A stretch of 64,000 bases of DNA from Podospora anserina (GCA_017654855.1 CM030333.1:4340001-4404000), one strand, 5' to 3'; numbered from the stretch's first letter, positions 8,740 to 15,380 are shown. Program-made: numbers and translations. The notes: generated by a model not told the origin, from the sequence alone.

Positions 8740-9504
8740 TGGTATGCACGTGATTGGTTTGAGAGGTCACAAGATGAGAGAGACAGGGAAAATTGCTGCA
8801 GTTATCTGGAAACCCTCTGAACGATATGGCGGATAAAGTGTTTGCGAGGCCGCCCGTGCGTGATGTAAAGGACGAGTACCCTGATGCGGACGCGGAGGAG
8901 CTGCCTGTTTTACGGTGGATGTGGCATCACCGGTTGATTGGGAGTCGAGCGAAAAGGATTGTGATTTGGAGCGAAAACAAAGGAGAAGGGGAAGGCGCAA
9001 GTTTGGACGAGGGAGGAGGTGAGGGGAGAGAAAAAAGAGAGGGAGAGGAGGTGGGAGGAGTTGAGGGTGCGGAGGGAGGCTTTCATGGCGGTTGGGTTAA
9101 TGGAAGGGGGAGGGGGGGAAGAGAGTGGGATCTTTTCGTAGAAGAGGGGGTGTATGTAGCGGAGAATCAAATTCGGAATAGAAGCGAATTAATAATGCAT
9201 GTTGACCATTTTTGGAGGCGTGTTGATAATCTTTCCAAGGTCTTTGCGTTATGTGGCAACTCTTGTCGATTTCTGTTTTTCTACACACACACCTCTTGAT
9301 CAGTCTAAGACCTGTTAACTATCTTAAAGGGCTGTTATTATATGTTTGATACTTGTTCAATTATCTTTGAAGGCGTACTGACTATTATACAAGGTTTTGG
9401 TATCTTGTTGCAGTGTCTACTTTTTTGTCTAAAATGTCTGGCAAGGGAGACGAGGGAGGTGTGTAATGATGGTGGACTTGATGGTGCTGATGTGGAGGTG
9501 ATTT

Positions 9505-9508
<4 letters not shown>

Positions 9509-9561
<53 letters not shown>
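9509..9561. repeat. (GT)n microsatellite
   Basis: Run of ~26 TG/GT units. Confidence 0.95.
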
Positions 9562-9564
<3 letters not shown>

Positions 9565-10189
9565 TGTGTTTGTGTGGGAGGGGGGGGGGATCTTGAGACT
9601 ACTCCCACTTGACGGACTTGGTTCTTTTTTTCTTATTCGTCAGGCGAATATAAAGTTGATATTGCCGCGCACGGCTTGCAGGTTTGTTGGATAGGTACCT
9701 CCTTCACGGCCCAGTTTGGGGGAATCAAGAAAACCAAGATGGGGCTGGAGAAGAGAGGTTGGAGGAAGACAAAAACTGAGCACTTTGGAGACGACGAAGA
9801 TCACTTACACCTTCCGAGGCGGAGCATTCTATTCTTTCCTGACTGGCCAGGTCCGGTGCCAGGACCTTTTGCTATCTTGAGAAACTTTAGACTGCGAAGC
9901 AAAGCAACATGTCGACACTTCTCGGGCTAATCTTTCAGATAACAGTCCACATCTTTCCCCTTCTAACTATCGGGCAGAGCAGAGACCAGCATCGTAAAAC
10001 AACAGACACAAGAACCACAAAATATAGGCAAAGAACAATACTGTGGAAGAAAATGGTACTCATATAATCTAGTTATTTTCCCTCGCAATGATACCCATAT
10101 TGTATTCTGACGCTAGGCAGTTAGCACCATTATCCAAAAGTTGCGATATTTGAAATAGAGTAACAGCTGGAAATATGCGGAGTGGTCAT

Positions 10190-10272
10190 TCAGAAAAAGA
10201 ACAATGTAGGTGATTGGTTATAATCATGGTAGATATAACTCATAAACAGCCTCTCTTGCGAGAATTCATCAT
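10190..10272 (-). ncRNA. Box C/D snoRNA copy 6 (LSU rRNA double guide)
   Basis: ATGATGA (C)...AGAGGCTGTTT-ATGA (guide+D')...ATGATT (C')...CTACATTGTTCTTTTT-CTGA (guide+D); terminal stem TGGTCA/TGACCA (10183-10188, 10274-10279). Confidence 0.88.
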
Positions 10273-10444
10273 TTGACCAAAGTTAAAACCGCGGGGGGGT
10301 GGGAACGTACCTTTGCTGGGGGGGAGCTATTGAGTTGACCGTGTGGAATACACAATGTCTATCTGACGAGATACTGGGCAAGTGTTAGGAACACAGACAG
10401 ACCAGAGTGATGAAATGAGGTGAATGCAAGGGGAAGATGGGGTG

Positions 10445-10528
10445 TCAGGAATAGAACAATGTAGGTGATGTGGTTATAATCATGGTAAGACATAACTCAT
10501 AAACAGCCTCTTTCGAGTAATTCATCAT
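10445..10528 (-). ncRNA. Box C/D snoRNA copy 5
   Basis: ATGATGA...AGAGGCTGTTT-ATGA...ATGATT...CTACATTGTTCTATTC-CTGA. Confidence 0.9.
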
Positions 10529-10698
10529 AGTGGAGATGGGGGCAGCAGAAGATGAAAGAAACGTACCATTGTTAAGGATATACCCCAGTTGATTATCGTT
10601 GAGTTGATGACTCGGCCGAATGAGCAGTTCCTCGAATCGTGTTAGCTTGGCCCAGACTCGAATCAGAGTAGAAAAGGAGGAAGTAAATAGTGTCATGA

Positions 10699-10780
10699 TC
10701 AGAAATAGAACAATGTATAGGTGATGAATGTAATCATGGTAAATTACTCATAAACAGCCTCGTGAGAGAATATGCATCAT
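10699..10780 (-). ncRNA. Box C/D snoRNA copy 4
   Basis: ATGATGC...GAGGCTGTTT-ATGA...ATGATT...TACATTGTTCTATTT-CTGA. Confidence 0.88.
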
Positions 10781-10949
10781 GTGGACCAGTAAAAAAGAGT
10801 GTGTGTCGGGGAGTGTGACATACTATGGCGGACGAGAAGGTGGTGGACCTCAGTGGTCATGGTCAAGAGACGGGCTGTGTTACTGTTGACAGGTTAGTCA
10901 CTGTGCAGTGAAGCGCATGAAAAGAGAAAAGTGTTTCGAGTGTGTCCGA

Positions 10950-11029
10950 TCAGAAATAGAACAATGTATAGGTGTATGTAAATCATCAAAAAAGATCTCA
11001 TAAACAGCCTCGTAAGAGAAATGCATCAT
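10950..11029 (-). ncRNA. Box C/D snoRNA copy 3
   Basis: ATGATGC...GAGGCTGTTT-ATGA...TGATGATT...TACATTGTTCTATTT-CTGA. Confidence 0.88.
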
Positions 11030-11203
11030 GGTGACAGTGTGAAGAATCGAAGAAGGATTGTTACGTACCAAAGAACCAGCAAATGAACTCGTGGCTGAAA
11101 CACGAGAGACGTTCAACTCGTAGGTATCTCCTCAGACTACTCCAGGTTAGCCAATGTGTTCCAGGTTAGGCAGAAGCAGATGAGTTGGCAGTTGATGGTG
11201 TAA

Positions 11204-11284
11204 TCAGAAATAGAACAATGTATAGGTGATAAATGCAATCATTAAAAAGATTTCATAAACAGCCTCGTGAGAGAAGTACATCAT
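11204..11284 (-). ncRNA. Box C/D snoRNA copy 2
   Basis: ATGATGT...GAGGCTGTTT-ATGA...ATGATT...TACATTGTTCTATTT-CTGA. Confidence 0.87.
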
Positions 11285-11428
11285 GGCAGGCGGGATGAAG
11301 GAAGATTGTACTATGGATACTTACTTTAATAAACAGCCCAAACATTGCAAACTCCATATCAACTATCGCCCAGTTAGCCAACCTGCCCAACGCCAATGCC
11401 GAAGAAAGAATAAAGGGTTTGAGTAGCC

Positions 11429-11507
11429 TCAGAAATAGAACAATGTATGGTGTTAAGTGTAATCATCAAAAGATTTCATAAACAGCCTCTTTCGAGAAAT
11501 GCATCAT
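11429..11507 (-). ncRNA. Box C/D snoRNA copy 1
   Basis: ATGATGCATTTCTCGAAAGAGGCTGTTTATGAAATCTTTTGATGATTACACTTAACACCATACATTGTTCTATTTCTGA. Confidence 0.88.
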
Positions 11508-11693
11508 AGAGCAATAGCATAACCAACAGCGCAAGTGAACTCCTTGCCGCCAGCCAGCCAGCCAAAAACGAGAGAAGAAAGGAATCAAAACTTACCTCCA
11601 ACACGACTTCCAGCGGGGGACCGCGGATGACAACAAATACCATCTCAAATTAAGAGTTATCCTATCGCTATATAAGTGTATCATAAGTCATTA

Positions 11694-14600
11694 TTACTCA
11701 ACAATCCAACCCTTCCCAGGAACCTTGCGTTGTGTCACTCTTCTTGCTGGCAATGGCCATCCCAGCCCTCCAGCGCCGCCCTCAGCCCGAAGATATGGGA
11801 TCACCCAGACCTCCTTCGTCTTGCCATCGGCACTTTCAGAGCCCTTGACCTCTTTGATGGGCTTGCCATACGTGAGAAGTGGCGTACCCTTGGCTAGAGA
11901 AGCGATCTGGCCTGCTGTCAAGTCCGTCAAAGCATGCATCCTCGTCTTGACCTTCTTCTCACCGTCTGCGCCTGTGTTGCCAGCCTTCTGGAGGTAGGCA
12001 TAGCAGATGTACTCGGGGCATTCGGCGGTGCTGAGATGAGCAAGAGGGGAAGTTGGATGTATGTATACCAGCCTGTCAAGAGGATCCTCAACCTTTTGAT
12101 CACCCTCAAGCGGGATGAGAGGGATGTATGGAACATCGATCGCACGACGTGGTTTCCTGTACGTCTCAGGCGGGTTGGGAGCCTTGTCAGCCCTGATGGC
12201 GACTTGATCAATGAAGCCTGCGGCAATCATCTGCTTGAGAGCTTGGACCTGTGTAGCAGAAGGAGGGTCCAGTTTCTCCTCAAGCTTGAAATTGGCGTGT
12301 TGTGGAATGTTGGTCCTCAGGAGATCCGCGATCTGGAATTGCAGCTGCCGAATTTCCTTTAGGATCTTGAACCGCACAAAGTGGCTTTCGCACCAGGCTT
12401 CTGTGGGCTCATGGGCAAACTCTCCTACGACCTGGAGCAGCTTGATGGCGTCACTCTTGTCGTCGAGGTAGCAAAAGTTCTTGTGGACAGCATTATATGC
12501 TTGACGAACTCTCGCTCGCTTTTCCTCGGCGACCACCTCTTCATTGGTACGGAAGTCTTCGGTGCTCTCCTCTAATGCTGGAATGGCTTGGTGTTCGTTG
12601 ATGAAAATCTCACCAGCAGACAGGGCGGCAACCAGAGCAATGGTATATGGCAGGCAGCCGTGAAGGTGTCCAACCAACAGGATGCGTGAGAAGCGAGGTG
12701 ACAAGGGGAAAATGGACATGGTCGAGCCTGTTGGCGTGATCTGCCCCTCAGGTGTGATGGCTGAAAGGTAGGTCAAAAGCTTCTCAGCCTTGACCAGGCT
12801 TTCTCGCTCTGGGGGTGTCGGGAATGGAAAGTTGACGACATGTTGCAAGTTCATGGCCTTCAGTTGTAGAACGACGCCCTCGATGGGCATGCGGAGCAGC
12901 TCTGGGTCGGCAAAGAGAGGGAAGTCCCTTTCGTAAATCGCAGACGAGTACAGCCTCCAGCAATGGCCAGGGCCAGTACGACCGGCACGACCGGCACGTT
13001 GTTGCGCACTTGCCTTGCTGATCCAATCGATCTGGAAGCTCTGGACGTTGCTCACAGGGTCATACCGGCGCTCCTTGGATCTGCCACAGTCGAAGACATA
13101 CCGAATACCAGGAATAGTCAAACTGGTCTCTGCAACGTTTGTCGACAAGATGACCAATCGCGAGCCGTCCGGGGGTGGCTCGAAGACCTTCATCTGCTCT
13201 TTTGTCGGAAGCATCGAGTACAAGGGCAAGATATGCATCTTTCTTGGTCCTGTGCCGGACTCCTCATCCTCAATGTCGAATTCCTTCTCCTCTTCTTCCT
13301 CGTCGGAAATCTCATCTTCATCCATATCGTGAACCGCTCTGTCATCGATATCGCCAAAGTCGATATCCTCAGCCTCGATAGGAGCTTCCTTGGCTGAAAT
13401 CTTGACCTTGGGCCCAGATGCAGTGTTCATGCCACCGCCAAAAGCAGCCTTCAGACGCTTGCTGAGTTGGGTGATCTCGCCTTGGCCAGTGAGAAACACA
13501 AGCATGCCACCTGGTGGCAGCTTTCGATGACCTCTGCTGATTTTGCGAAAGGCGTCCTCGACATAGTCGTGCCCTGTCTTCTTGGCGAAGTGGATGGTGA
13601 CCTCGTGTTGACGGCCCTCCACGTCGATAACTCGTGGCGGAGTCTCGAAGAGCGCGGTATTTTGTGTAAATTCTTCAACACGTAAAGTGGCAGACATGAT
13701 GATCAGCTTCAAAGGCTTTGTTGTGGGGTCTTCCTTGGCCAGCTCAGCTCTCAGCTTGACCACTCGGCTGAGCATTGCGATGAGGATATCGGTGTTGACA
13801 CTTCTCTCGTGGGCTTCATCGATAATAATGGCAGAGTACTTGCGAAGTGCAAAATCCTGGGCCGCCTCTCGGAGGAGAACACCATCAGTCATGAACTTGA
13901 TGGCTGTGTTGGGATCGACGGTGCCCTCGAACCGAATCTGGTAGGCGACGACCTTGGAAAAGTCTCCCATCTCCTGACCAACCCGTTTCGACATACTGAC
14001 AGCAGCCACACGTCTCGGCTGGGTGACGCCAATCATGCCAGGAGTAGGACCCTTCTGGTCACCGTAGCCAGCCTCAAACAAAAACTGCGGCAGTTGTGTT
14101 GTCTTTCCCGAGCCAGTGGCACCACAGATGACGACTACGTCGTTGTTGTGAATGGCCTCCATAATCTTCTGTTCCTCAGCCACGACAGGAAGCTTGAAAC
14201 GAGCCTCCTCAATCTCAGGGTTCCTTGTGACGGTGACGGCATGCGACTTTCTGGTGACATTGGTTGTTGGCTGCAACTCAATCGGTAGTGGCTCTTGCTC
14301 TAATGGGCGGGGCTGGAAGTTTTCTGGTCTGGGCATTTCGAGTATAGTGGAAGTTGTTGGTGTGTATCCCAGAGCTTCGTTTCGTTGCTGGTGTGCCCAA
14401 GCCTTGAAAGCAGATGATCTTTCTTTCCGCCGCTCTTTCATAGACTCCTCGTCTTCCTCGTCCTCCGAGCCGGACCCCTCTTCAGAACTCTCTTCGTCGT
14501 CATCCTCTTCCTCTTCGTCCTCTCCACTGCCAGCATCACTCATGTCCTCATCCGACTGCTCTTCACTTTTCTCCGACCCACCAGCATCAGACTCGTCCTC

Positions 14601-15380
14601 ATCCTCCTCACCCGACTCCTCTTCATCAGCGGAGCTGAACCCGCCAAATTCATCAGATACTGGTTCTTCGTGAACGACAGGCGCAGCTAATGAGAACTTC
14701 GACTTCACACCGCCTCTCTTTTGTCTCTTTGCAAGCACTGGGCGGCCAGAGTCGTCGACCTCGAGTGGCCGTTTCAGACCAGAGCCGACTGCCGATGTGG
14801 TAGGAGCTGCCGCGGTTGTAGAGGACTGTGGTTGATCTTGCTTGGCGCTGGTGCCCTGCTGTGTCGTCCTGGGTCCTTCCTCCTCAGGCTCGTCGGATTC
14901 CTCCGGTTGCCGATGTTGTGGGACCTCCCCCTTCTTAACAGTGCGCTTCTGGTAGAGCAGCGTCAAGTCTGACTTATCCACGCCGAGACCGGCATCCTTC
15001 TCCCTGAGAACGCGGCGGATGGCTTGCTTCTTGGTCTCCTTAACTTGACCAATTGACTTGGCACTGCTGAATAAACTGGTGTCGATCTTGTTGGCCTCGA
15101 GTTTTTTGAGGAGCTCTCGGTTCTCATCCTTCTTCAACTTGCTTTCGATGTACTTCTCCAGACGTTTGGCCTTTTTTCCAGTGACCTTGGTGCCATCGGG
15201 CTTTAGTGACTCGCGCAACTGTTTTCTCTTCTCCTCGGCCTCAGCCTGCTGCGCCGGGGTGATCTCAACAACATTGGAATCTGCATCGAGCTCTGTGTCG
15301 AGAGTAGCTCTCTCCTCGGCGCGTTGGCGCTCAAGATGCTTCCGCTTGCGCTGACGTGGGACGAATTTCTTGACGGCCAT
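11694..15380 (-). CDS. DHR1: DEAH-box RNA helicase Dhr1/Ecm16 (DHX37), SSU processome
   Basis: 1228-aa ORF; GATGSGKTTQ, TQPRRVAA, DEAH, SAT, STNVAETSLTIPGI, QRAGRAGRTGPG; N-terminal KFVPRQRK and acidic linker typical of Dhr1. Confidence 0.93.
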   Translation of the reverse strand: MAVKKFVPRQRKRKHLERQRAEERATLDTELDADSNVVEITPAQQAEAEEKRKQLRESLKPDGTKVTGKKAKRLEKYIESKLKKDENRELLKKLEANKIDTSLFSSAKSIGQVKETKKQAIRRVLREKDAGLGVDKSDLTLLYQKRTVKKGEVPQHRQPEESDEPEEEGPRTTQQGTSAKQDQPQSSTTAAAPTTSAVGSGLKRPLEVDDSGRPVLAKRQKRGGVKSKFSLAAPVVHEEPVSDEFGGFSSADEEESGEEDEDESDAGGSEKSEEQSDEDMSDAGSGEDEEEEDDDEESSEEGSGSEDEEDEESMKERRKERSSAFKAWAHQQRNEALGYTPTTSTILEMPRPENFQPRPLEQEPLPIELQPTTNVTRKSHAVTVTRNPEIEEARFKLPVVAEEQKIMEAIHNNDVVVICGATGSGKTTQLPQFLFEAGYGDQKGPTPGMIGVTQPRRVAAVSMSKRVGQEMGDFSKVVAYQIRFEGTVDPNTAIKFMTDGVLLREAAQDFALRKYSAIIIDEAHERSVNTDILIAMLSRVVKLRAELAKEDPTTKPLKLIIMSATLRVEEFTQNTALFETPPRVIDVEGRQHEVTIHFAKKTGHDYVEDAFRKISRGHRKLPPGGMLVFLTGQGEITQLSKRLKAAFGGGMNTASGPKVKISAKEAPIEAEDIDFGDIDDRAVHDMDEDEISDEEEEEKEFDIEDEESGTGPRKMHILPLYSMLPTKEQMKVFEPPPDGSRLVILSTNVAETSLTIPGIRYVFDCGRSKERRYDPVSNVQSFQIDWISKASAQQRAGRAGRTGPGHCWRLYSSAIYERDFPLFADPELLRMPIEGVVLQLKAMNLQHVVNFPFPTPPERESLVKAEKLLTYLSAITPEGQITPTGSTMSIFPLSPRFSRILLVGHLHGCLPYTIALVAALSAGEIFINEHQAIPALEESTEDFRTNEEVVAEEKRARVRQAYNAVHKNFCYLDDKSDAIKLLQVVGEFAHEPTEAWCESHFVRFKILKEIRQLQFQIADLLRTNIPQHANFKLEEKLDPPSATQVQALKQMIAAGFIDQVAIRADKAPNPPETYRKPRRAIDVPYIPLIPLEGDQKVEDPLDRLVYIHPTSPLAHLSTAECPEYICYAYLQKAGNTGADGEKKVKTRMHALTDLTAGQIASLAKGTPLLTYGKPIKEVKGSESADGKTKEVWVIPYLRAEGGAGGLGWPLPARRVTQRKVPGKGWIVE

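What the first reader, a model, noticed from the sequence alone, without database searches (positions are those of the whole stretch)
10190..11507. Both guides target two adenosines ~14 nt apart in one LSU rRNA segment
Seen: the near-invariant parts of all copies are the reverse complements of AACAGCCTC(T) and ATAGAACAATGTA(G). From recalled rRNA sequence, fungal LSU contains ...CCAAGGUGAACAGCCUCUxGUUGAUAGAAyAAUGUAGAUAAGGG..., carrying both segments back to back. The D+5 rule predicts Am in AAC[A]GCCUC from the D' guide (equivalent to human Am2802, guided by U95/SNORD95) and Am in GAU[A]GAACAAU from the D guide. The second site is not the nearby Um guided by yeast snR62/human U34. Inference: a dual guide binding one ~30-nt rRNA stretch, methylating sites I do not recall from S. 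cerevisiae 25S and possibly chaperoning folding, which could explain dosage amplification.
Basis: partly seen in the sequence, partly recalled or inferred. Interest (0 to 1): 0.75.

Follow-up and report, generated by a model that had tools for sequence, protein, structure and literature searches.

The report
Six-copy intronic snoRNA array, known family
Six diverged copies of one small nucleolar guide RNA sit in six successive introns of a spliced transcript in a Podospora fungus, and they match a two-target guide (CD28) already described in Neurospora, so the finding is correct but largely ordinary.

Summary
Six box C/D snoRNA copies lie on the minus strand between 10190 and 11507. Their D' and D guide elements are invariant or nearly so.

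RNA-like contigs from four studies show six GT..AG introns, each holding one copy. The window is from the genus Podospora.

On a complete environmental eukaryotic rDNA unit, the best duplexes anchored by the box+5 rule fall on two adenosines 14 nt apart in the LSU rRNA. The D duplex has 14-15 bp, and 0 of 1000 shuffled guides equalled it. The D' duplex has only 10-11 bp, and 267 of 1000 shuffles equalled it.

This dual guide is already published as Neurospora crassa Nc CD28. Its D' guide targets 26S-Am1845 (homologues At snoR33, human U95) and its D guide targets 26S-Am1859. The snR62/U34 site lies 7 nt further on.

"The fungal snoRNAome" already notes that CD_28 paralogues persist in Sordariomycetes.

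Methylation, a chaperone role and a dosage benefit remain untested. The small increments are the six-intron architecture and its position directly behind, and possibly co-transcribed with, the DHR1 helicase gene.

The parts
11429..11507 (-). snoRNA copy c6, box C to box D, 79 nt. It lies in the first intron.
   Evidence: Box C is ATGATGC, D' is ATGA, C' is GATGATT and D is CTGA. The D' duplex is 11 bp and the D duplex 14 bp on the L016 LSU.
11204..11284 (-). snoRNA copy c5, 81 nt
   Evidence: The D' duplex is 10 bp and the D duplex 14 bp.
10950..11029 (-). snoRNA copy c4, 80 nt
   Evidence: The D' duplex is 10 bp and the D duplex 14 bp. A 4-bp flanking stem is present.
10699..10780 (-). snoRNA copy c3, 82 nt
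   Evidence: The D' duplex is 10 bp and the D duplex 14 bp.
10445..10528 (-). snoRNA copy c2, 84 nt
   Evidence: Box C is the canonical ATGATGA. The D' duplex is 11 bp and the D duplex 15 bp.
10190..10272 (-). snoRNA copy c1, 83 nt. Its D guide carries a change at guide position 4, next to the predicted target.
   Evidence: The D' duplex is 11 bp. The D duplex is cut to 12 bp, guide positions 5-16. A 6-bp terminal stem is present.
11363..11595 (-). Intron 1 (233 nt, GTAAGT...TAG), holding c6
   Evidence: The joint 11362->11596 appears in contigs of 2 of 4 runs.
11137..11324 (-). Intron 2 (188 nt), holding c5
   Evidence: The joint appears in 4 of 4 runs.
10883..11068 (-). Intron 3 (186 nt), holding c4
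   Evidence: The joint appears in 4 of 4 runs.
10631..10823 (-). Intron 4 (193 nt), holding c3. The joint was reported as 10629->10823 with 'cut +1', which gives GT..AG ends at these coordinates.
   Evidence: The joint appears in 4 of 4 runs.
10374..10566 (-). Intron 5 (193 nt), holding c2
   Evidence: The joint appears in 4 of 4 runs.
10107..10310 (-). Intron 6 (204 nt), holding c1
   Evidence: The joint appears in 4 of 4 runs.
9819..11693 (-). Host transcript span. A first exon ends at 11596. Internal exons are 11325-11362, 11069-11136, 10824-10882, 10567-10630 and 10311-10373. A last exon runs from 10106 to about 9819.
   Evidence: Contig pieces are. Contigs end at 9815-9819 in 3 of 4 runs. 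The spliced RNA from the DHR1 stop to 9819 is 678 nt, and its longest ATG ORF is 57 aa.
11694..15380 (-). DHR1/DHX37-type DEAH helicase gene, 1228 aa plus stop. It lies directly upstream on the same strand, with about 98 nt between its stop codon and the first 5' splice site.
   Evidence: ORF. E 1.3e-258 to yeast DHR1 chains in PDB. Pfam helicase domains. Contigs of 2 of 4 runs continue from this CDS into the spliced host exons.

Best explanation
The region is a tandem array of six paralogous box C/D snoRNA genes on the minus strand. Each lies in its own intron of a seven-exon, essentially non-coding host transcript in a Podospora species.

The snoRNA is the counterpart of Neurospora crassa Nc CD28, family CD_28 of the fungal snoRNAome. 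Its D' guide (GAGGCUGUUU, then AUGA) pairs with LSU rRNA so that the fifth base upstream of D' faces the A of AAC[A]GCC. That site is Nc 26S-A1845, the U95/snoR33 site. Its D guide (UACAUUGUUCUAUUU, then CUGA) faces the A of GAU[A]GAAC, 14 nt downstream. That site is Nc 26S-A1859.

Each snoRNA is presumably released from the excised, debranched intron by exonucleolytic trimming. It would then direct fibrillarin-type 2'-O-methylation at the two adenosines.

Shown here: the six copies, their box and guide anatomy, the splicing of all six introns, and the complementarity to a eukaryotic LSU. Taken from print: the target assignment in Neurospora. Inferred: mature snoRNA accumulation, snoRNP assembly and actual methylation.
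For: - **Anatomy.** Boxes C, D', C' and D plus two guides are present in 6 of 6 copies.
- **Selection.** The box-to-box cores are 73-91% identical between pairs. The intron flanks (0.50 and 0.56) and exons (0.46) are at the level of shuffled controls (0.44-0.51). Only the snoRNA is conserved, and within it the 14-nt guide-plus-D' block and the D guide are invariant or nearly so.
- **Splicing.** Six joints with GT..AG ends on the minus strand appear in contigs from four different studies. Five joints are in 4 of 4 runs and one is in 2 of 4.
- **Intron geometry.** The 5' splice site to box C distance is 38-42 nt, or 88 nt in intron 1. Box D to the branch-point A is 54-59 nt, or 68 nt in intron 6. 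The branch point to the 3' splice site is 10-14 nt. The 5' distances lie just under the 41-60 nt main range that Liu et al. report for intronic N. crassa snoRNAs.
- **Targets.** On a complete environmental rDNA unit (L016: SSU, 5.8S and LSU), the best box+5-anchored duplex of every copy's D' guide is at LSU 1905 and of every D guide at LSU 1919. The D duplex has 14-15 bp with one G.U. 0 of 1000 shuffled guides reached its 13 Watson-Crick pairs.
- **Adjacency.** The best sites of two shuffled guides fell within 30 nt of each other in 19 of 1000 trials.
- **Literature.** Nc CD28 is 78 nt, cloned and intronic, with Am1845 through D' (12/0) and Am1859 through D (14/0). CD_28 paralogues persist in Sordariomycetes, and P. 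anserina was among the 147 genomes analysed.
- **Taxon.** The exact DHR1 protein clusters with Podospora comata, pseudocomata, anserina and related species.
Against: - **Weak D' duplex.** It has 10-11 bp including a G.U, which alone is no better than chance. 267 of 1000 shuffles of the c3 guide reach 9 or more Watson-Crick pairs. In c3-c5 a second 10-bp site (LSU 452, two G.U) ties in length.
- **Non-canonical boxes.** D' is AUGA, not CUGA. Box C ends in C or U rather than A in 4 of 6 copies.
- **Terminal stems.** They are present only in c1 (6 bp) and c4 (4 bp).
- **Copy c1.** It has a mismatch at guide position 4, beside the D target.
- **No Rfam match.** No Rfam 15 family, SNORD95 included, matches the region even at E up to 10.
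- **Proxy rRNA.** The rRNA used is from an unnamed environmental eukaryote, not this species.
- **No direct alignment.** No Neurospora CD28 sequence was available to align.
- **Methylation unverified.** In the passages I read, Liu et al. verified methylation by primer extension for CD11 and CD29, not CD28.
- **Mature RNA not shown.** No run on record as RNA was listed, and contigs cannot show a mature small RNA.
Confidence: 0.88

Rival explanations
1. The RNA is effectively a single guide. Only the D guide (14-15 bp) directs methylation. The conserved D'-side element serves as adjacent 'extra base-pairing' that docks the snoRNP on the same rRNA stretch and stimulates the D-guided reaction, rather than methylating the A of AACAGCC.
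For: The D' duplex is short and not beyond chance on its own (267 of 1000 shuffles), and the D' box is AUGA. Van Nues et al. 2011 (PMC3116282, passages read) show that complementarity next to a target can raise methylation up to about five-fold. Canzler et al. do not name CD_28 among the conserved double-guide C/D families they list in the text of section 25.
Against: The 14-nt block GAGGCTGTTTATGA is identical in six paralogues whose other parts have diverged. The register places a canonical box+5 adenosine at a site that Liu et al. equate with the U95/snoR33 site, with 12/0 pairing in Neurospora. Human SNORD95 is listed as guiding A2802.
Confidence: 0.12
2. The six-fold copy number is a neutral product of tandem duplication of a unit of about 250 bp in a genome with weak repeat-induced point mutation. 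It is not an adaptation for dosage or chaperoning, and some copies, c1 above all, are decaying.
For: c1 has a mismatch next to its D target, and box C departs from consensus in 4 of 6 copies. N. crassa manages with a single CD28. Liu et al. attribute the rarity of snoRNA isoforms there to RIP, while the P. anserina genome paper describes RIP as weak in Podospora.
Against: The flanks and exons have diverged to shuffle level while every core keeps its boxes and guides. That pattern argues for long-term purifying selection on each copy. All six introns are still spliced.
Confidence: 0.3
3. The repeats are not snoRNAs. They are a repeated intronic element of another kind, such as a splicing or regulatory element or a small mobile element, that resembles rRNA antisense by chance.
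For: There is no Rfam hit, terminal stems are mostly weak, and no mature small RNA was shown.
Against: The full C, D', C', D box order with correct spacing is present in 6 of 6 copies. The D guide has 14-15 bp of complementarity, reached by 0 of 1000 shuffles. The match to a cloned Neurospora snoRNA's size, intronic location and both predicted targets is exact.
Confidence: 0.02

Closest known systems
Neurospora crassa Nc CD28, family CD_28 of 'The fungal snoRNAome' (Liu et al. 2009, PMC2780460; Canzler et al. 2018, PMC5824354)
   Same: It is a box C/D snoRNA of about 78-84 nt and is intron-encoded. Its D' guide is predicted to target an LSU adenosine and its D guide a second adenosine exactly 14 nt downstream, 7 nt before the snR62/U34 uridine. 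Both organisms are Sordariales. Paralogues are noted for Sordariomycetes.
   Different: Neurospora is listed with one gene and D' pairing of 12/0. Here there are six diverged copies in six consecutive introns, with D' pairing of 10-11 bp. Direct sequence alignment to Nc CD28 could not be done. The supplements that would list the Podospora copies were closed.
Human SNORD95 (U95) and Arabidopsis snoR33
   Same: Liu et al. list both as functional homologues of the D' guide. SNORD95 is also a double guide acting on one short stretch, 28S A2802 and C2811, which are 9 nt apart. It is intronic in a host gene, RACK1.
   Different: The second target differs: a C 9 nt downstream in human against an A 14 nt downstream here. 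No Rfam model matches the window copies at E up to 10, so sequence-level membership is not shown.
UHG/GAS5-type non-coding snoRNA host genes, and N. crassa snoRNA clusters I-V
   Same: There is one snoRNA per intron of a multi-exon transcript with short exons and little coding potential. The longest ORF is 57 aa here, against 159-267 bp ORFs in the Neurospora hosts.
   Different: Those hosts carry different snoRNAs in their introns. This one carries six paralogues of a single snoRNA. It starts within about 100 nt of the stop codon of a protein gene (DHR1) and may be transcribed together with it.
Yeast snR62 / human U34 / Nc CD22
   Same: It acts on the same rRNA stretch. Its uridine lies 7 nt downstream of the D target and inside the D-guide duplex.
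   Different: It is a different snoRNA with a different target nucleotide. Its binding site overlaps that of the CD28 D guide, so the two snoRNPs presumably cannot occupy the stretch at once. This is inference.

Membership tests
Box C/D snoRNA (class) | Box C (RUGAUGA) near the 5' end and box D (CUGA) near the 3' end | tested here: met
   CTGA is present in 6 of 6 copies. Box C is ATGATGA in c1 and c2. It is ATGATGC or ATGATGT in c3-c6, where the last position deviates.
Box C/D snoRNA (class) | Internal D' and C' boxes in the order C, guide, D', C', guide, D | tested here: met
   D' is ATGA in 6 of 6 copies, one change from CUGA. C' is xATGATT, giving TGATGA in c4 and c6.
Box C/D snoRNA (class) | Terminal stem bringing boxes C and D together | tested here: inconclusive
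   The flanks give 6 bp in c1 and 4 bp in c4, and 2 or fewer contiguous pairs in the other four.
Box C/D snoRNA (class) | At least 10 bp of guide-rRNA complementarity ending next to box D or D', with the target opposite the fifth upstream base | tested here: met
   On environmental rDNA L016, D' gives 10-11 bp at LSU 1905. D gives 14-15 bp at LSU 1919, or 12 bp in c1. The D guide beats 1000 of 1000 shuffles. The D' guide does not stand out (267 of 1000). The species' own rRNA was not available.
Box C/D snoRNA (class) | A stable small RNA in a fibrillarin/Nop56/Nop58/Snu13 particle, with the target 2'-O-methylated | not testable with these tools
   The laid runs are contigs and cannot show a small RNA or a modification.
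Nc CD28 / CD_28 | D' target at the U95/snoR33 adenosine, and D target 14 nt downstream and 7 nt upstream of the snR62/U34 uridine | tested here: met
   Targets 1905 and 1919 on L016 are 14 nt apart, and a U lies at +7 in the segment printed. Liu Table 1 gives Am1845, Am1859 and Um1866. Equivalence of numbering is inferred from these spacings.
Nc CD28 / CD_28 | Sequence homology to the Neurospora CD28 gene | not tested
Nc CD28 / CD_28 | Intron-encoded, in a Sordariomycete | tested here: met
   Six spliced introns are shown. The genus Podospora follows from the exact protein cluster.
SNORD95 (U95), as an Rfam sequence/structure family | A match to the family covariance model | tested here: not met
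   cmscan of 9000-13000 at E up to 10 returned only one unrelated weak hit. The whole window gave nothing at gathering score. I did not check separately that the family is in release 15.

The most novel reading that the evidence does not exclude
The six-intron CD28 array is not an independent host gene but the spliced 3' UTR of the DHR1 helicase mRNA. Output of a high-dosage LSU guide would then be tied to transcription of a ribosome-biogenesis helicase, and, through six introns downstream of the stop codon, to its nonsense-mediated decay.

In addition, the two guides would clamp one contiguous rRNA stretch of about 30 nt as a folding aid. That stretch must be shared in time with the overlapping snR62-type snoRNP, which would be why dosage was amplified.
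Probability: 0.1. Interest if true: 0.5.

Novelty: new member of a known kind. Interest (0 to 1): 0.2.

Why it matters
The finding has limited reach. It confirms that the CD28 double guide, with two 2'-O-methyl adenosines 14 nt apart that budding and fission yeast lack, extends from Neurospora to Podospora. It also gives a clean example of snoRNA paralogues kept under selection while their introns and exons drift.

It offers a tractable system in a harmless laboratory fungus with weak RIP. Two questions could be asked there: whether snoRNA copy number matters for methylation stoichiometry, and whether a snoRNA host can be the 3' UTR of a ribosome-biogenesis gene.

It does not open a new class of mechanism.

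Tried and rejected
- **Rfam.** Nothing matched the array at E up to 10, and nothing in the whole window reached gathering score.
- **Own genome.** None is held for the window, so the species' own rRNA could not be aligned.
- **Tandem Repeats Finder.** It sees only a (TG)n tract, because the 250-bp units are too diverged outside the cores.
- **Sequencing runs.** No RNA holder was listed; six runs are only guessed to be RNA. I laid four of these, from four studies. As contigs they cannot show mature snoRNAs, strand or level.
- **Link to DHR1.** Contigs bridge the DHR1 CDS and the spliced exons in 2 of 4 runs (X15, X17). They break between about 11610 and 11737 in the other two (X18, X20). De Bruijn contigs can merge overlapping transcripts, so co-transcription stays open.
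- **Simultaneous binding.** Unconstrained co-folding of each core with a 51-nt LSU segment never formed both guide duplexes at once. c1 formed the D' duplex and c2-c6 the D duplex. This ignores the snoRNP proteins and is not evidence either way.
- **Degenerate extra copies.** None were found in the window.
- **Literature on methylation.** A search for RiboMeth-seq together with Neurospora gave two papers, neither of which, by its listing, maps methylation in a filamentous fungus. A looser search was uninformative. I therefore found no printed experimental mapping of these two sites, within those searches only.
- **Other papers.** PMC3596301 does not mention CD28.

Full report
**What is there.** Read on the minus strand, the stretch 10190-11507 holds six copies of one element of about 80 nt. 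A combined pattern of the two conserved blocks finds exactly these six in the 64-kb window. None appeared in 100 shuffles.

Each copy has the same layout:
- box C (ATGATGA in c1 and c2; ATGATGC or ATGATGT in c3-c6);
- an 11-12 nt spacer;
- the invariant block GAGGCTGTTT followed by ATGA (box D');
- a short spacer;
- a C'-like xATGATT;
- a spacer;
- TACATTGTTCTATTT followed by CTGA (box D).

The D'-side 14-mer is identical in 6 of 6 copies. The D-side 18-mer is exact in 4 of 6, with one change each in c1 and c2. Tandem Repeats Finder misses the array, because only the cores are alike.

Pairwise identity is 73-91% for the cores. It is 0.50 and 0.56 for the intron flanks and 0.46 for the exons, against 0.44-0.51 for shuffled controls. 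The duplications are therefore old, and selection has held each snoRNA, and within it the boxes and guides, while everything around it drifted.

**The copies are intronic and the introns are spliced.** I laid contigs of four runs from four studies on 9600-11900. The run kind is only guessed to be RNA. They show six joints whose skipped parts have GT..AG ends on the minus strand: 10107-10310, 10374-10566, 10631-10823, 10883-11068, 11137-11324 and 11363-11595. Five joints are seen in 4 of 4 runs, and the first intron in 2 of 4. Each intron holds one copy.

The geometry is strikingly uniform:
- 5' splice site to box C: 38-42 nt, or 88 nt in intron 1;
- box D to a CTAAC-type branch point: 54-59 nt, or 68 nt in intron 6;
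- branch point to 3' splice site: 10-14 nt.

Liu et al. report 41-60 nt as the main range of 5' distances for intronic snoRNAs in Neurospora. Internal exons are 38-68 nt long. Contigs end at 9815-9819 in three runs. The spliced RNA downstream of the DHR1 stop is 678 nt, with a longest ATG ORF of 57 aa. This is a UHG/GAS5-like host.

**Targets.** No genome is held for the window and no rRNA lies in it. I therefore searched metagenome contigs with the two target-sense motifs joined by a gap. The commonest context was ...CCAAGGTG-AACAGCCTCT[A/G]GT[T/C]G-ATAGAACAATGTA-G[A/G]TAAGGG. 5 of 5 loci tested are LSU_rRNA_eukarya by Rfam. These loci were selected by the pattern. They show that such an LSU segment exists, not how common it is.

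I then scanned one complete unit (L016: SSU, 5.8S, LSU) with every copy's guides, under the rule that the fifth base upstream of the box must pair.
- The best D' site is LSU 1905 in 6 of 6 copies, with 10-11 bp including one G.U.
- The best D site is LSU 1919 in 6 of 6 copies, with 14 bp in c3-c6, 15 bp in c2 and 12 bp in c1.
- c1's duplex is shorter because of a mismatch at guide position 4.
- Runners-up have 9-11 bp with 1-6 G.U pairs.

In 1000 shuffles of the c3 guides, none reached the D guide's 13 Watson-Crick pairs. However, 267 reached the D' guide's 9. The two best sites fell within 30 nt of each other in 19 of 1000 trials. Duplex energies are -16.8 to -18.1 kcal/mol for D' and -16.8 to -20.5 kcal/mol for D.

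The D assignment therefore stands on its own. The D' assignment rests on invariance, adjacency and the literature.

**It is a known snoRNA.** Table 1 of Liu et al. 2009 (PMC2780460; passages and section 7 read) lists Nc CD28 as 78 nt, on chromosome II, cloned and intronic. Its D' guide gives 26S-Am1845 (12/0), with homologues A. thaliana snoR33 and human U95 and none in S. cerevisiae or S. pombe. Its D guide gives 26S-Am1859 (14/0), with no homologue. Nc CD22 is the snR62/U34 equivalent at Um1866.

The spacings of 14 and 7 nt are the ones found here. A U lies 7 nt after the D target in the segment printed. A table in PMC3511933 gives human SNORD95 the targets 28S A2802 and C2811. A double guide on one short stretch is thus a trait already seen in the family's human counterpart.

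In the passages I read, primer-extension verification in Neurospora concerned CD11 and CD29, not CD28.

Canzler et al. [quoted passage not shown] Nc_CD_28 (CD_28) in Sordariomycetes". They analysed P. anserina among 147 genomes. They do not name CD_28 among the conserved double-guide families listed in the text.

**Organism and neighbour.** The minus-strand ORF 11697-15380 is a DHR1/DHX37 DEAH helicase. It scores E 1.3e-258 to yeast DHR1 chains and carries the expected Pfam domains. Its exact sequence sits in a cluster of Podospora comata, pseudocomata, anserina, pseudoanserina and pseudopauciseta proteins. The window is therefore a Podospora, order Sordariales, like Neurospora.

The P. anserina genome paper lists only 13 snoRNA genes and describes RIP as weak. 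Liu et al. blame strong RIP for the lack of snoRNA isoforms in Neurospora. That contrast fits one copy there and six here. It remains an inference.

**An open point.** Only about 98 nt separate the DHR1 stop codon from the first 5' splice site. A TATA-like motif lies in between. Contigs of two runs (4040 and 3537 nt) run from the DHR1 CDS straight into the spliced exons. In the other two runs the contigs break between about 11610 and 11737.

Either the array is a spliced 3' UTR or read-through of DHR1, or two overlapping transcripts were merged by assembly. I put this near even odds.

**Mechanism and rivals.** The most likely mechanism (0.88) has three steps. The host transcript is spliced. 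Each debranched intron is trimmed to a C/D snoRNP. Each snoRNP methylates the two adenosines 14 nt apart.

- That both sites are really methylated I would put nearer 0.6-0.7.
- Rival one (0.12) holds that only the D guide methylates and the D' element acts as adjacent extra base-pairing, in the sense of van Nues et al. 2011.
- Rival two (0.3, not exclusive with the main reading) holds that copy number is neutral and c1 is decaying.
The D-guide duplex covers the snR62-type uridine, so the two snoRNPs must take turns. This is inference.

**Verdict.** The increments are the six-intron single-snoRNA host architecture and its position behind DHR1. Interest is low.

Noticed in passing
window 11694-15380 (-): An intron-free DHR1/DHX37-type DEAH helicase gene of 1228 aa ends about 98 nt upstream of the snoRNA host's first 5' splice site. 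Contigs of 2 of 4 runs join the two.
   Followed up: partly
window 9505-9576: A (TG)n microsatellite of about 18 units lies just downstream of the host transcript's apparent 3' end at about 9819.
   Followed up: no
window 11328-11338 (-), host exon 2: Exon 2 contains GGGCTGTTTAT, which resembles the D' guide block GAGGCTGTTTAT. This may be chance or a relic of a lost copy. It was not picked up within 2 mismatches over the 14-mer.
   Followed up: partly
window 10079-10340, 10429-10591, 10601-10852, 11116-11266: Besides the spliced contigs, several runs hold unspliced contigs that cover introns with c1, c2, c3 and part of c5. These could be pre-RNA, retained introns or intron-derived RNA. Contigs cannot tell which.
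   Followed up: no
L043 and L064 (metagenome rDNA loci): Two of the five environmental rDNA units checked carry group I introns in their rRNA genes. L043 also has a tRNA-like hit inside the LSU span.
   Followed up: no
window 10285-10305 and 10318-10326: Runs of G on the + strand (C on the transcript strand) flank the 5' splice site of intron 6. No function was looked for.
   Followed up: no
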